Below are positions 41,801 through 44,800 of a DNA stretch of 64,000 nucleotides, in pieces; the first letter of the stretch is position 1, and every line of letters starts with the position of its first letter. The DNA is taken from NCBI RefSeq assembly GCF_054482595.1, contig NZ_CM137008.1. The stretch is one strand, 5' to 3'. The position numbers are program-made.

Positions 41801-44800
41801 AAGTATTGCCCTGCATTCTGTGGGGCGGGGTGGGTTGGTATGAAAAGAAGGATACCCATAGGTATTTAAAAAGTAAATACCCATGGGTAACTTTTTGCGG
41901 TGTCTTAACTGGTGACTAGTTGTTTGGTGAGCTATGATGCGTTTTGTGCTTTCTTTTTACGGATTTCTTCGTAGATCATATTGTAATACTGTTTTTTCTC
42001 TTCAAGAGTTTTTAATAAGTTATCCGCTTCACTTTCTGGCAGTTCGTCTAAGAGATCTAAAAAAATACGTTGTCGTGGCGTTAGAACCCTTGTTTCATAA
42101 CTGGAGGCTGTGTTCGTTGATGATGAAACGATACCATCCATCCATCCCCGGGGTAACCCAAAGGACTCTTCGATAATCTCCACCATATCATCAGCGATCC
42201 GTTTTTTTCCCTTTTTCCCCTCTGGGTACAACATTCTTGATACATAAGAAGGCTCGCGCCCGATCTTTCTGGCCACGTTAACCGCTTTACCATCGCATTT
42301 CTCATCACGAATTTTGATGAGTTGCTGTCGTCTAAATTCATATTTGTCCATAGGTAAATAATAGATGCGATTACCGCAAGGTAAACAACCTGTGGGTATT
42401 GACTTTTGTTTACCTGTGGGTATTCTTTACTGTGTTTACTAAGGAGTAGCTATGGAAGAATTAAGAATATTTCTCAATTCTCTTTCGTCAGATGAACAGC
42501 GTATGTTTGCATGCGAGTGTGGTACCAGCATCGGTTATCTAAGAAAGGCATTGAGTAAAGGTCAAGTGTTAGGGGCATCGTTATGCGTCCTTATTGAGCG
42601 AGCCAGTAATGGTGAAGTTACACGTCAGCAACTAAGGCCTTTTGATTGGATGAATATTTGGCCCGAGCTGGAAGATACCAAAACGTTAACACAACCACTT
42701 TCTAGGAGCTTGATTCATGAAAATCAAGCATGAACACATCCGCATGGCGATGAATGCCTGGGCGCATCCGGACGGTGAAAAAGTTCCGGCAGCTGAAATA
42801 ACCAGGGCTTATTTTGAACTGGGTATGACGTTCCCAGAACTGTATGACGACAGCCATCCGGAAGCCCTGGCTCGCAATACCCAGAAAATTTTCCGCTGGG
42901 TAGAGAAAGACACCCCTGATGCAGTTGAAAAAATTCAGGCGTTGTTACCAGCGATCGAAAAGGCAATGCCACCTTTGCTGGTGGCCAGAATGCGCAGCCA
43001 CAGTTCAGCTTATTTTCGGGAGCTGGTGGAGACGCGGGAGCGACTGGTGAGAGACGCTGATGATTTTGTCGCAGTGGCAATCGCCGGTTTCAATCAGATG
43101 AACCGTGGTGGCCCGGCAGGAAATGCTGTGGCAGTACATTGACTGACAATAGCCATATCGAATCGCTTCCGGCAACTCGTGAGTAAAAAGATTCGGTATC
43201 AGAAGAGGTGAGTATGGCTAACGCCTGGCTCAGATTATGGCATGACATGCCAAATGACCCTAAGTGGCGAACAATTGCCAGGGTGTCAGGGCAGCCAATT
43301 GCAACAGTGATGGCAGTGTATATCCACCTCCTGGTGAGCGCGTCACGAAATGTCACGCGAGGTCACATTGATGTCACGACAGAAGATTTGGCAAGTGCGC
43401 TCGACGTGACAGAAGAGGTAATTGATTCAATTTTGCAGACGATGCAGGGGCGGGTACTTGATGGTGATTTAATCACTGGATGGGAAAAACGCCAGGTGCT
43501 TAAAGAGGACAACGGCAATATTTCGCAAACCGCAAAATCTCCTGCAGAGCGCAAGAGGGCGCAGCGAGAGAGGGAAAGAAAGCGGGAACAAAATGGCGAT
43601 TGTCACGGCGCGTCACGAAATGTCACGCACATGTCACGACGAGTCACGACAGATAAAGATACAGATAAAGATACAGATCAAGAAGATCAAAACACTATGG
43701 TCCATGGCGTAAAAAACGCCACGAACCAGGCAGGGGATGTTCAGACCGTCAATCTTGGTCAGCCAGCAGGCACGACACCGGAAGCCGATTCAGCGTATGC
43801 GCTGAAAGCCGATTCGGGCGCTGTGCAGCAGGTGATGACCGCAAGGCTGGAGCAATCACACCAACTGCAGCAGCCCGAAGCCGATTCCGCCATTCAGCGG
43901 GAAGCCGATTCCGCCATTCAGCGGGAAGCCGATCGGGTAGTCCCGGAAAACACCGGGCAGTCTGTGGGACGAGTGGATTATCCGGATGTGTTCGAACAGG
44001 TCTGGCGGGAGTACCCGTTGCGTGCCGGAGCAAACCCGAAGAAATCCGCTTTCAGTGCCTGGAAGGCCAGATTACGCGAGGGGGTGCCACCAGAGGCCAT
44101 GCTGGATGGCGTGAGGCGTTACGCAAGATACTTGGCGGCTACCGGGAAAACGGGAACGGAATTTGTTCAGCGAGCGACGACGTTTTTTGGACCGGACCGG
44201 AATTTTGAGAACCCCTGGTTGCTCCCGGTAAGCGGCACGAACAACCAGCGTTGTGTGAATCATATTTCTGAACCGGATAACGAAATTCCGCCGGGCTTCA
44301 GGGGGTAAGTGTTAATTTCTGGTCATGAGGTAATTTTCAGGAGGGCTTGTGGCAAAAGTTTTTACACAAGAAGAGCGGGAAAAAATTAAAGGACAGGTTG
44401 TTGAACTCGTACGCCAGAGTGGGCGTGAGACGTTACGGCAACTGGAAGTCAAGACAGGTGCGACAAGATATCTGATGAGCGTTCTCGCAAGAGAGCTGGT
44501 TGCCAGCGGCGATGTATACAACTCTGGTTACGGGTTATTCCCGTCTGAACAGGCGCGTAAGGACTGGCAAAATGCCCGTAAAAAGCTCTCAAGGGCAAAG
44601 CTGAAGAAACCATCTGCGGTTGATCCGGACCTTATCTGGTCATTACCAGACGGAGAAATACGCCGCTACGACAGGCGCCTGAATATAATCTGTCGCGAGT
44701 GCCGGAAGAGCGAAGCTATGCAGCGTGTACTGGCTTTCTATCAGGGTAATTTTCAGGAGGCGGTACTGTAAGTGAAATTAGCTATCAGGCTTCAATTGCC

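What the first reader, a model, noticed from the sequence alone, without database searches (positions are those of the whole stretch)
41853..42427. Five TACC-N4-GGTA dyads define OL and OR of the prophage switch
The same 12-bp dyad occurs twice just downstream of the repressor gene and three times in the repressor/cro intergenic region, overlapping a TTGACT-N16-TATTCT promoter. This is a lambda-like tripartite OR and bipartite OL built from a shorter operator than lambda's 17-mer.
Basis: seen in the sequence. Interest (0 to 1): 0.5.

Follow-up and report, generated by a model that had tools for sequence, protein, structure and literature searches.

The report
Operator sites of a lambdoid prophage switch
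The five short palindromes are almost certainly the repressor/Cro binding sites (OR and OL) of an ordinary lambda-style lysis-lysogeny switch in a common E. coli prophage. The layout is textbook, but this operator sequence is absent from the papers I could search.

Summary
TACC-N4-GGTA occurs exactly four times in the 64-kb window (0.48 expected), all within 575 bp. A fifth copy, AACCTGTGGGTA, has one mismatch.

- Nine loci from nine genera or phages have repressors sharing this N-terminal DNA-binding domain and a homologous Cro.
- All nine carry the dyad at OR1 (repressor start -71 to -74). Eight carry an exact OR3 dyad at -32 to -34, 39-40 bp from OR1; the cro-less Klebsiella remnant has a one-mismatch OR3 copy. 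A degenerate OR2 lies between.
- Eight of nine also have an OL pair 25-26 bp apart.
- Phage Tritos has the same backbone but a different DNA-binding domain and Cro, and has none of these dyads.
- Homology to Tritos breaks at 41835 and resumes at 42705, so all five dyads lie inside the swapped immunity cassette.

The geometry is lambda-like:
- OR1 and OL1 overlap the -10 of PR and PL.
- OR2 is centred about -42 from a leaderless PRM.
- OR3 overlaps the PRM -35.

The repressor is a chimera: an mEp043-type helix-turn-helix domain fused to a short DicA-type C-terminal domain, with no S24 peptidase. Protein binding is inferred, not shown.

Verdict: a new member of a known kind, of modest interest. 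One side observation deserves follow-up: across 80 near-identical prophages, the four central bases of the operators are far more polymorphic than the arms or the flanking sequence.

The parts
41853..41864 (.). OL1: TACCCATAGGTA, the operator nearest the PL start. Its last two bases (read on the minus strand) are the first two bases of the PL -10.
   Evidence: Exact match. The same position and role of OL1 is seen in 8 of 9 related loci.
41878..41889 (.). OL2: TACCCATGGGTA, 25 bp from OL1 and abutting the PL -35.
   Evidence: Exact match. OL pair spacing of 25-26 bp is conserved in relatives.
41849..41877 (-). Putative PL. On the minus strand: -35 TTTACT (41877-41872), 17-nt spacer, -10 TATCCT (41854-41849). 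It would drive leftward transcription toward ydfC, DicF and dicB.
   Evidence: My own reading of the sequence. It falls below the scan's 9-of-12 threshold. Relatives have the same layout: OL2, then a -35 (TTGACC, TTTACT or TAGACA), then OL1, then a -10 (TATATT).
41843..41889 (-). A 16-bp hairpin formed by OL2 and OL1 in RNA read from the repressor gene, followed by UCCUUCUUUU. Possibly an intrinsic terminator for the repressor transcript (a secondary, unproven role).
   Evidence: Terminator-like hit. Folding gives -22.9 to -24.1 kcal/mol, z = -4.9 to -6.4.
41932..42351 (-). Repressor gene, 139 aa. Residues 1-75 form an XRE-type helix-turn-helix domain, 77-85 a disordered linker, and 89-138 a DicA-type helical hairpin.
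   Evidence: ORF. AlphaFold2 model, mean pLDDT 86. Foldseek matches to XRE-type helix-turn-helix repressors. C-terminal domain versus DicA, E=1e-7 and NCBIfam NF007257. N-terminal domain 65-82% identical to S24-type CI repressors.
42358..42385 (-). Putative PRM. On the minus strand: -35 TTTACC (42385-42380), 16-nt spacer, -10 TATTAT (42363-42358). The repressor ATG (42351) starts 7 nt after the -10, so the mRNA is probably leaderless.
   Evidence: Promoter scan. A -10-like hexamer lies 6 nt before the ATG in most of the 9 related loci; the Klebsiella remnant shows none. The positionally equivalent paaR2 is experimentally leaderless (PMC8630535).
42372..42383 (.). OR3: TACCGCAAGGTA. It overlaps the PRM -35 and spacer, and its centre is about -26.5 from the inferred PRM start.
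   Evidence: Exact match. Exact OR3 dyad at the same distance from the ATG (-32 to -34) in 8 of 9 relatives; the cro-less Klebsiella remnant has a one-mismatch copy.
42387..42398 (.). OR2: AACCTGTGGGTA, one mismatch. It lies between the back-to-back -35 boxes of PR and PRM, 24 bp from OR1 and 15 bp from OR3, with its centre about -41.5 from the PRM start.
   Evidence: It shares the 13-nt ACCTGTGGGTATT with OR1. The same arm is degenerate in relatives, which keep the 25+15 spacing.
42411..42422 (.). OR1: TACCTGTGGGTA. It covers the PR spacer and the first two bases of the PR -10.
   Evidence: Exact match. Conserved in 9 of 9 relatives.
42399..42426 (+). PR: TTGACT-16-TATTCT, driving cro and ydaT.
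   Evidence: Promoter scan.
42452..42733 (+). cro-like gene, 93 aa, YdaS-family helix-turn-helix protein. It is co-inherited with the dyads.
   Evidence: ORF. 47-70% identical to the Cro proteins of all dyad-bearing relatives and 24% to Tritos Cro. phrog_35. Annotation.
41836..42704 (.). The immunity cassette: OL/PL, repressor, OR, cro. It is swapped as a unit relative to phage Tritos; only the repressor C-terminal-domain segment (41933-42048) keeps 76% identity.
   Evidence: blastn of the window against Tritos. Identity is 98.7% up to 41835, resumes at 42705 at 96.5%, and is 76% over 41933-42048.
42710..42727 (.). TTGATTCATGAAAATCAA: an exact copy of the YdaT (CII-equivalent) high-affinity operator OM, at the cro/ydaT junction. 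It sits just outside the swapped cassette.
   Evidence: The motif and its position are as footprinted in CP-933P (PMC9986795).

Best explanation
The five dyads are the operators of the immunity switch of a Qin/Rac-type lambdoid prophage that carries an HK97-type morphogenesis module. A dimer of the 139-aa repressor is inferred to recognise the TACC/GGTA arms through its N-terminal XRE-type helix-turn-helix domain; the recognition helix REPSYVSRMLY is nearly invariant across the family. Cro is inferred to use the same sites. At OR, repressor bound to OR1 and OR2 would block PR (TTGACT-16-TATTCT). OR2 is centred about -42 from PRM, the position from which lambda CI activates PRM. OR3 overlaps the PRM -35, so it would give negative autoregulation by repressor, or shut-off by Cro. 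The repressor mRNA is probably leaderless. At OL, OL2 and OL1 bracket the -35 and overlap the -10 of a leftward promoter. That promoter would keep the ydfC-DicF-dicB-exonuclease-integrase operon silent. What is shown: the site statistics, the co-inheritance of dyads with the DNA-binding domain and Cro, the promoter geometry, and the protein folds and homologies. What is inferred: actual binding, order of occupancy, activation of PRM, and leaderless translation. Because the C-terminal domain is DicA-like and lacks an S24 peptidase, induction is expected to be RecA-independent, either by an antirepressor or by stochastic flipping as reported for DicA. This step is by analogy only.
For: (1) Statistics: 4 exact sites against 0.48 expected, all within 575 bp; P about 1e-11.
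(2) Co-variation: mEp043, CharmingMan, Serratia, Yersinia, Pantoea, Klebsiella, Edwardsiella, Salmonella and Leclercia loci have repressors sharing the N-terminal domain, with 47-57% identity to the window repressor over the whole alignment and 65-82% over the N-terminal segment. All nine have the dyad at OR1 (ATG -71 to -74). Eight have an exact OR3 dyad at -32 to -34; Klebsiella has a one-mismatch copy. A half-degenerate OR2 lies between. Eight of nine have an OL pair 25-26 bp apart, lying 0.46-2.3 kb downstream.
(3) Their Cro proteins are homologous, 47-70% identical.
(4) Negative control and cassette swap: Tritos has the same backbone and the same DicA-type C-terminal domain but a different DNA-binding domain and Cro. 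It has no TACC-N4-GGTA and instead carries its own repeats (GAAC/GTAC type) at the same OR and OL positions. Homology breakpoints at 41835 and 42705 enclose all five dyads.
(5) PL and PR share one design: operator, -35, operator overlapping the -10.
(6) In 80 near-identical prophages the arms are conserved (2 of 24 columns variable) while the centres vary (9 of 12), as expected if the arms are the contacted bases.
(7) Fold: four N-terminal helices at pLDDT 89-94. Foldseek neighbours are phage repressors, C-proteins, HigA and lambda cI N-terminal domains.
(8) The Klebsiella remnant keeps the repressor and dyads without cro.
Against: There is no binding data. Neither EMSA, footprinting nor reporter assays can be done here. 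Comparative data cannot separate repressor binding from Cro binding, because both are co-inherited with the dyads. The PL hexamers are weak (TTTACT and TATCCT, 8 of 12) and fall below the scan threshold. The arm centres are only 8 bp apart, tighter than my recollection of about 10 bp for 434 and lambda half-sites, so the real contact surface may extend outward or the binding mode may differ. The oligomeric state of the DicA-type C-terminal domain is unknown, so cooperativity and OL-OR looping are speculative. Pfam does not recognise the helix-turn-helix domain, and the PDB sequence search is empty.
Confidence: 0.88

Rival explanations
1. The OL pair is primarily an intrinsic terminator for the repressor transcript, not an operator. 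The two palindromes pair into a 16-bp stem followed by a U-rich tail, 43 bp after the stop codon.
For: A terminator-like hit on the minus strand. Folding gives -22.9 to -24.1 kcal/mol with z = -4.9 to -6.4. No other terminator lies between the stop codon and OL in the window.
Against: Any two near-identical palindromes will pair, and relatives form similar but weaker hairpins. In relatives the same pair sits 0.8-2.3 kb from the repressor gene, directly in front of the leftward operon, with -35 and -10 boxes interleaved. mEp043 has a separate GC-rich terminator-like hairpin upstream of its OL. The stem is AU-rich (5 GC pairs of 16) and the U-tract is interrupted (UCCUUCUUUU). A terminator role can coexist with the operator role; I put that dual role at about 0.3. 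As the sole function it is unlikely.
Confidence: 0.05
2. The dyads are bound only by Cro, or by some other cassette-encoded or host factor, and the 139-aa protein recognises a different sequence.
For: Cro is co-inherited with the dyads in 8 of 9 relatives, so the comparative data do not by themselves assign the sites to the repressor.
Against: The Klebsiella remnant has the repressor and the dyads but no cro. The repressor's predicted recognition helix is nearly invariant, as are the arms. No other repeated element exists in OR or OL. In every characterised lambdoid switch, CI and Cro share operators (established knowledge; also PMC8630535 for PaaR2 and YdaS).
Confidence: 0.05
3. The dyads are a chance cluster, or leftover repeats with no regulatory role in a decaying prophage.
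For: Some E. coli strains carry frameshifted repressor alleles. The integrase is annotated as frameshifted in the strain whose 1.7-kb immunity region is identical to the window.
Against: P is about 1e-11. Conservation of position and spacing across 9 diverged loci. Conservation of the arms within 80 copies. The repressor, Cro and YdaT ORFs are intact in the window. The module is present in 821 of 5426 complete E. coli genomes.
Confidence: 0.01

Closest known systems
Phage lambda OR/OL-CI-Cro switch (textbook)
   Same: Divergent repressor and cro genes. Three operators in OR and operators at a leftward PL downstream of the repressor gene. OR1-OR2 spacing of 24 bp. OR2 centred about -42 from PRM. 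OR3 over PRM. A probably leaderless repressor mRNA. A weak middle operator.
   Different: The core operator is a 12-bp TACC-N4-GGTA (about 14 bp with flanks) rather than 17 bp. OR2-OR3 spacing is 15 bp rather than 23. There are two OL sites rather than three. OL is 0.5 kb from OR rather than 2.4 kb. The repressor has no S24 autocleavage domain. The CII role is taken by YdaT. No N gene follows PL.
Phage mEp043 (and CharmingMan) immunity region
   Same: The repressor N-terminal domain is 65% identical over residues 1-86, with an identical REPSYVSRMLY recognition helix. Cro is 70% identical. The dyads, OR 25+15 spacing, OL 25-26 spacing and promoter interleaving are all the same. The same operator specificity, and hence cross-immunity, is plausible.
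   Different: The mEp043 cI carries an S24 (LexA-type) C-terminal domain and sits in a lambda-like N/cII/O/P backbone. I found no published operator analysis for it, so this is a sequence relative and not a characterised system.
Qin prophage DicA/DicC/dicBp switch (E. coli K-12)
   Same: A short repressor whose C-terminal domain is homologous (33% identity, E=1e-7; NF007257). The same backbone to the left (ydfC, DicF, dicB). The repressor gene is immediately followed by the promoter of the dicBF-type operon. For DicA, RecA-independent switching and an antirepressor (Rem) are reported (bioRxiv 10.1101/2023.04.14.536235).
   Different: The DNA-binding domain, Cro/DicC and the operators are unrelated. 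There are no TACC-N4-GGTA dyads in the Qin locus, and no Rem homologue in the window.
CP-933P PaaR2/YdaS/YdaT switch (E. coli O157:H7)
   Same: The same prophage family. YdaT and its TTGATT-N6-AATCAA operator lie at the cro/ydaT junction. The repressor is non-S24 and leaderless, and OR and PL operators were demonstrated experimentally (PMC8630535).
   Different: CP-933P's operators are different sequences: 18-bp inverted repeats built from a GTTTAGTAA half-site, four in OR and three at OL. It also has a paaA2-parE2 toxin-antitoxin pair downstream of the repressor, which is absent here.

Membership tests
Lambdoid CI/Cro bistable immunity switch | Divergently transcribed repressor and cro genes separated by a short region with back-to-back promoters | tested here: met
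   Repressor at 41932-42351 (minus) and cro at 42452-42733 (plus), with a 100-bp gap. PR and PRM consensus hits.
Lambdoid CI/Cro bistable immunity switch | Multiple copies of one dyad-symmetric operator overlapping PR/PRM (OR) and a second set at PL (OL) | tested here: met
   Three sites at OR (one imperfect) and two at OL. The layout is conserved in relatives.
Lambdoid CI/Cro bistable immunity switch | Repressor and Cro physically bind these operators, with opposite preference orders | not testable with these tools
   Needs EMSA, footprinting or reporters. Only co-inheritance is shown.
Lambdoid CI/Cro bistable immunity switch | Repressor N-terminal helix-turn-helix domain of the Cro/CI (XRE) fold | tested here: met
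   AlphaFold2 pLDDT 89-94 over residues 1-70. Foldseek matches to phage repressors, C-proteins, HigA and lambda cI N-terminal domains at rmsd 1.6-4 A. Pfam itself gives no hit.
Lambda-CI / LexA-type SOS-inducible repressors | C-terminal S24 peptidase domain for RecA-stimulated autocleavage | tested here: not met
   No Pfam hit. The C-terminal half aligns to DicA's C-terminal domain, whereas relatives with the same DNA-binding domain do carry PF00717.
DicA family (NCBIfam NF007257, PRK09706) | Full-length match above the curated cut-off (101 bits) | tested here: not met
   23.9 bits, covering residues 86-136 only. The DNA-binding domain is unrelated.
mEp043-type immunity specificity | Homologous DNA-binding domain and Cro together with TACC-N4-GGTA operators at OR and OL | tested here: met
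   Functional cross-immunity was not tested.
CP-933P (PaaR2/YdaS/YdaT) switch | YdaT homologue with a TTGATT-N6-AATCAA operator at the cro/ydaT junction | tested here: met
   Exact site at 42710-42727. YdaT annotation and phrog_163. Motif from PMC9986795.
CP-933P (PaaR2/YdaS/YdaT) switch | PaaR2-type operators (GTTTAGTAA inverted repeats) and a paaA2-parE2 pair behind the repressor | tested here: not met
   The OR and OL sequences are different. No genes lie between the repressor stop codon and OL.

The most novel reading that the evidence does not exclude
The operator centres may be under diversifying or tuning selection. In 80 near-identical copies of this prophage, 9 of 12 central N4 columns of OR1-OR3 are polymorphic. 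The comparison values are 2 of 24 arm columns, 9 of 74 other intergenic columns and 16 of 420 repressor-gene columns. One lineage differs from the commonest haplotype at 8 positions in 110 bp, and 7 of them are central operator bases. Separately, the same operators are served by both S24-type and DicA-type repressors. That would make homoimmune phages with different induction triggers. The OL pair may also double as the terminator of the repressor transcript.
Probability: 0.3. Interest if true: 0.5.

Novelty: new member of a known kind. Interest (0 to 1): 0.3.

Why it matters
This immunity module sits in about 15% of complete E. coli genomes (821 of 5426), including ST131 and O157:H7 strains. 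It gates expression of the cell-division inhibitors DicF and DicB and of a largely intact prophage.

Knowing its operators gives a defined and testable switch: five sites and three promoters. It predicts which superinfecting phages (mEp043-type) the prophage should exclude.

It also offers a clean natural example of modular exchange. One module is the DNA-binding domain, Cro and operators; the other is the sensor or oligomerisation domain.

It does not change how lambdoid switches are understood.

Tried and rejected
- Pfam scan of the repressor: no hit at all.
- PDB sequence search: only chance-level matches to the ADAR Z-alpha domain; rejected as noise.
- The search for related loci with the DNA-binding domain on viral contigs returned only 100%-identical copies. 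These were useless for deep comparison but were used for the micro-variation analysis.
- Literature searches for mEp043 and for six operator 12-mers found nothing relevant. A search around the SPC32H Rep structure found nothing bearing on these operators.
- No Rem (Qin antirepressor) homologue in the window, so the inducer remains unknown.
- My attempt to quantify polymorphism at OL failed. The regex anchoring selected for intact arms, and indels shifted the flanks. Only the OR analysis, which was anchored on the ATG, is used.
- I considered the OL hairpin as a terminator-only explanation and downgraded it.
- I considered very-short-patch-repair mutational bias at TAGG/CAGG as a cause of the central polymorphism. 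It fits some C/T changes but not all, and it was not tested.
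Full report
**1. The observation**

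The pattern TACCNNNNGGTA has four exact matches in the 64-kb window, at 41853, 41878, 42372 and 42411. Dinucleotide-preserving shuffles give a mean of 0.48, and none of 100 reaches four. One-mismatch sites elsewhere in the window occur at chance frequency. Four exact sites within 575 bp has a Poisson P of about 1e-11. A single pair spaced 24-26 bp is expected about 0.0009 times in a whole 5.2-Mb genome. There are no exact dyads in 77.6 kb of other sequence.

The ORFs are as described: a 139-aa ORF on the minus strand (41932-42351) and a 93-aa ORF on the plus strand (42452-42733). TTGACT-16-TATTCT lies at 42399-42426.

**2. Context**

The region is 100% identical to E. coli chromosomes such as Ecol_881. 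It lies in a lambdoid prophage integrated next to a tRNA-Ser gene and mtfA. Leftward genes are ydfC, DicF, dicB, a DUF1482 gene, an exonuclease and the integrase. Rightward genes are cro, ydaT, replication genes, hokD/sok, Q, lysis genes and HK97-type head and tail genes. The 611-bp immunity core occurs in 821 of 5426 complete E. coli genomes.

**3. The proteins**

The 139-aa protein has no Pfam hit and no relative of solved structure by sequence.

- Its first 75-85 residues are 65-82% identical to the N-termini of many S24/LexA-type CI repressors, including phage mEp043 cI.
- Residues 89-134 are homologous to the C-terminal domain of DicA of prophage Qin (33% identity, E=1e-7; NCBIfam NF007257 over residues 86-136).
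- An AlphaFold2 model (mean pLDDT 86) shows a four-helix N-terminal domain, a disordered linker at residues 77-85 and a C-terminal helical hairpin.
- Foldseek places the N-terminal domain among XRE-type repressors. The best match is the Rep of Salmonella phage SPC32H (rmsd 1.6 A over 72 residues); others are C-proteins, HigA and lambda cI.

The repressor is therefore a chimera of an mEp043-type DNA-binding domain and a DicA-type C-terminal domain, with no autocleavage domain.

The 93-aa protein is a YdaS-family Cro. The next gene is YdaT, the CII equivalent.

**4. Comparative test**

I collected nine diverged loci whose repressors share the N-terminal domain. They are phages mEp043 and CharmingMan, and prophages in Serratia, Yersinia, Pantoea, Klebsiella, Edwardsiella, Salmonella and Leclercia.

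- All nine have TACC-N4-GGTA at OR1, 71-74 bp before the repressor ATG. Eight have an exact OR3 dyad 32-34 bp before the ATG, 39-40 bp from OR1. The Klebsiella remnant has a one-mismatch OR3 copy (CACC).
- Between OR1 and OR3 lies a middle site whose repressor-proximal arm is degenerate (GGTT, GGGC, GGCC or GAAC). This is exactly the arm that is imperfect in the window.
- Eight of nine have a pair 25-26 bp apart, lying 0.46-2.3 kb downstream in front of the leftward operon. Edwardsiella shows only one exact OL site.
- Their Cro proteins are 47-70% identical to the window's Cro.
- The recognition-helix segment REPSYVSRMLY is nearly invariant.
- The Klebsiella locus is a remnant without cro that still keeps the repressor and the dyads.

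**5. A natural swap experiment**

Phage Tritos has the same backbone and the same DicA-type C-terminal domain, but a different DNA-binding domain and Cro.

- It has no TACC-N4-GGTA.
- It carries its own repeats (GAACTTTTAGTACAT type) at the equivalent OR positions (spacing 24 and 33) and OL positions (spacing 24).
- blastn shows 98.7% identity up to window position 41835, which is 18 bp beyond OL1. Identity resumes at 42705 at 96.5%. In between, only the segment coding the C-terminal domain (41933-42048, 76%) is alignable.

All five dyads therefore lie in the parts of the cassette that change together with the DNA-binding domain and Cro.

**6. Geometry**

The reading of PL is mine.

- **PR:** -35 at 42399-42404 and -10 at 42421-42426. 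OR1 (42411-42422) covers the spacer and the first two bases of the -10. OR2 (42387-42398) abuts the -35.
- **PL (minus strand):** OL2 (41889-41878), then TTTACT (41877-41872), a 17-nt spacer containing OL1 (41864-41853), then TATCCT (41854-41849). This is the same design as PR. Relatives show it with better hexamers (TTGACC and TATATT).
- **PRM (minus strand):** TTTACC (42385-42380), a 16-nt spacer, TATTAT (42363-42358), six nucleotides, then the ATG (42351). This implies a leaderless mRNA. Most relatives have a -10-like hexamer at the same distance from the ATG. The positional equivalent paaR2 is experimentally leaderless (PMC8630535).
- **Operator positions relative to PRM:** OR2 is centred about -41.5 from the PRM start, the position from which lambda CI activates PRM (established knowledge). 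OR3 is centred about -26.5, over the -35 and spacer.
- **Centre-to-centre spacings:** OR1-OR2 24 bp, OR2-OR3 15 bp, OL1-OL2 25 bp.

**7. Operator definition**

From 40 sites symmetrised, the consensus is T-TACC-Y-R-Y-R-GGTA-A. Flank preference is weak (about 61% T/A) and there is a pyrimidine-purine alternation in the centre. The arms were selected by exact match, so their information content is not independent.

The conserved core is indeed short (12-14 bp). The footprint is unknown, and a 14-bp operator is known for 434 by my recollection.

**8. Population footprint**

This analysis used 80 copies with an identical DNA-binding domain, aligned on the ATG with no selection on the dyads.

| Column class | Variable columns |
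|---|---|
| Central N4 of OR1-OR3 | 9 of 12 |
| Operator arms | 2 of 24 |
| Other intergenic | 9 of 74 |
| Repressor gene | 16 of 420 |

Fisher P is 1.7e-5 for centre against other intergenic columns and 1e-4 for centre against arms. The arms behave as constrained contact bases. The centres vary more than the neighbouring non-coding DNA. The copies are related, so these P values overstate independence.

**9. The OL hairpin**

On the repressor-sense RNA, OL2 and OL1 pair into a 16-bp stem followed by UCCUUCUUUU. The energy is -22.9 to -24.1 kcal/mol with z = -4.9 to -6.4.

Relatives' OL pairs also fold, but more weakly. They lie far from the repressor gene, and mEp043 has a separate GC-rich terminator-like hairpin upstream. 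I regard a terminator role in this prophage as possible (about 0.3) and additional to the operator role, not an alternative to it.

**10. Comparison with known systems**

The logic is lambda's. The nearest characterised switches are the following.

- **Qin DicA/DicC/dicBp:** the same C-terminal domain and left-arm genes, but a different DNA-binding domain and different operators.
- **CP-933P PaaR2/YdaS/YdaT:** the same YdaT and OM operator, present exactly at 42710-42727, but different OR and OL operators.

The operator sequence itself matches uncharacterised relatives such as mEp043. I found no paper that describes it, within the limits of an open-access library.

**11. Verdict**

Binding and regulation remain inferred. 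It is a new immunity specificity of a well-known kind of switch, not a new mechanism.

Noticed in passing
window 42372-42422 (OR1-OR3), compared across L006-L085, L001 and L002: The four central bases of the operators are hypervariable among near-identical prophages: 9 of 12 columns are polymorphic. The comparison values are 2 of 24 arm columns, 9 of 74 other intergenic columns and 16 of 420 gene columns. One lineage differs from the commonest haplotype at 8 positions in 110 bp, 7 of them central operator bases. Possible causes are tuning or diversifying selection, or a mutational bias.
   Followed up: partly
window 41932-42351 (-): The repressor is a domain chimera. It joins an mEp043-type helix-turn-helix domain, which in most relatives is fused to an S24 peptidase, to a DicA-type helical C-terminal domain shared with Tritos and Qin DicA. 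The same operators are therefore served by SOS-cleavable and non-cleavable repressors.
   Followed up: partly
window 41836-42704 vs L005 (Tritos): The immunity cassette has sharp recombination boundaries. The left one is 18 bp past OL1 (41835/41836). The right one is at 42704/42705, just before the YdaT operator. An island of 76% identity lies inside, over the repressor C-terminal-domain codons.
   Followed up: yes
window 42710-42727: An exact TTGATT-N6-AATCAA site spans the cro end and the ydaT start. This is the high-affinity YdaT operator footprinted in CP-933P, and it implies a PRE-like circuit here.
   Followed up: partly
window 41843-41889 (-): OL2 and OL1 form a 16-bp RNA hairpin with a U-rich tail, 43 bp after the repressor stop codon. 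It may terminate the PRM transcript before the DicF/dicB operon.
   Followed up: partly
window 42081-42341 (-) alternative frame; proteins P0012, P0015, P0017, P0018, P0005, P0110: Several database entries are frameshifted versions of the repressor. They start MNLDD... in the alternative frame and rejoin the normal frame later. The repressor is therefore a pseudogene in some E. coli strains.
   Followed up: no
window 40623-40674 (-), 46264-46439 (+), 36108-36194 (+): Rfam finds DicF sRNA downstream of the putative PL, a sok antitoxin RNA next to hokD, and a tRNA (annotated tRNA-Ser in the matching strain Ecol_881) at the prophage's left edge, probably the attachment site.
   Followed up: no
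window 41321-41527 (+): A 68-aa ECs_2282-family CxxC zinc-ribbon gene lies on the opposite strand to the predicted PL transcript, between OL and ydfC. PL transcription would be antisense to it. Another strain annotates a minus-strand ORF there instead.
   Followed up: no
L089 (Klebsiella) 2455-3470: A prophage remnant keeps the S24-type repressor with OR1, OR3 and OL dyads, but has no cro and abuts a host pyruvate:ferredoxin oxidoreductase gene. It may be a domesticated or orphan repressor.
   Followed up: no
L003 (mEp043) 3553-3577 and equivalent spots in L088, L091, L092: About 25 bp upstream of OL2, several relatives have a GGTAAAC half-site. In mEp043 this is a wider dyad, TTACCTG-N10-CAGGTAA. 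It may be a third OL element that the window lacks.
   Followed up: no
L005 (Tritos) 2357-2428 and 2914-2957: Tritos has its own operator set (GAACTTTTAGTACAT-type repeats) at the same OR and OL positions. This is a second, apparently undescribed immunity specificity on the same backbone.
   Followed up: no
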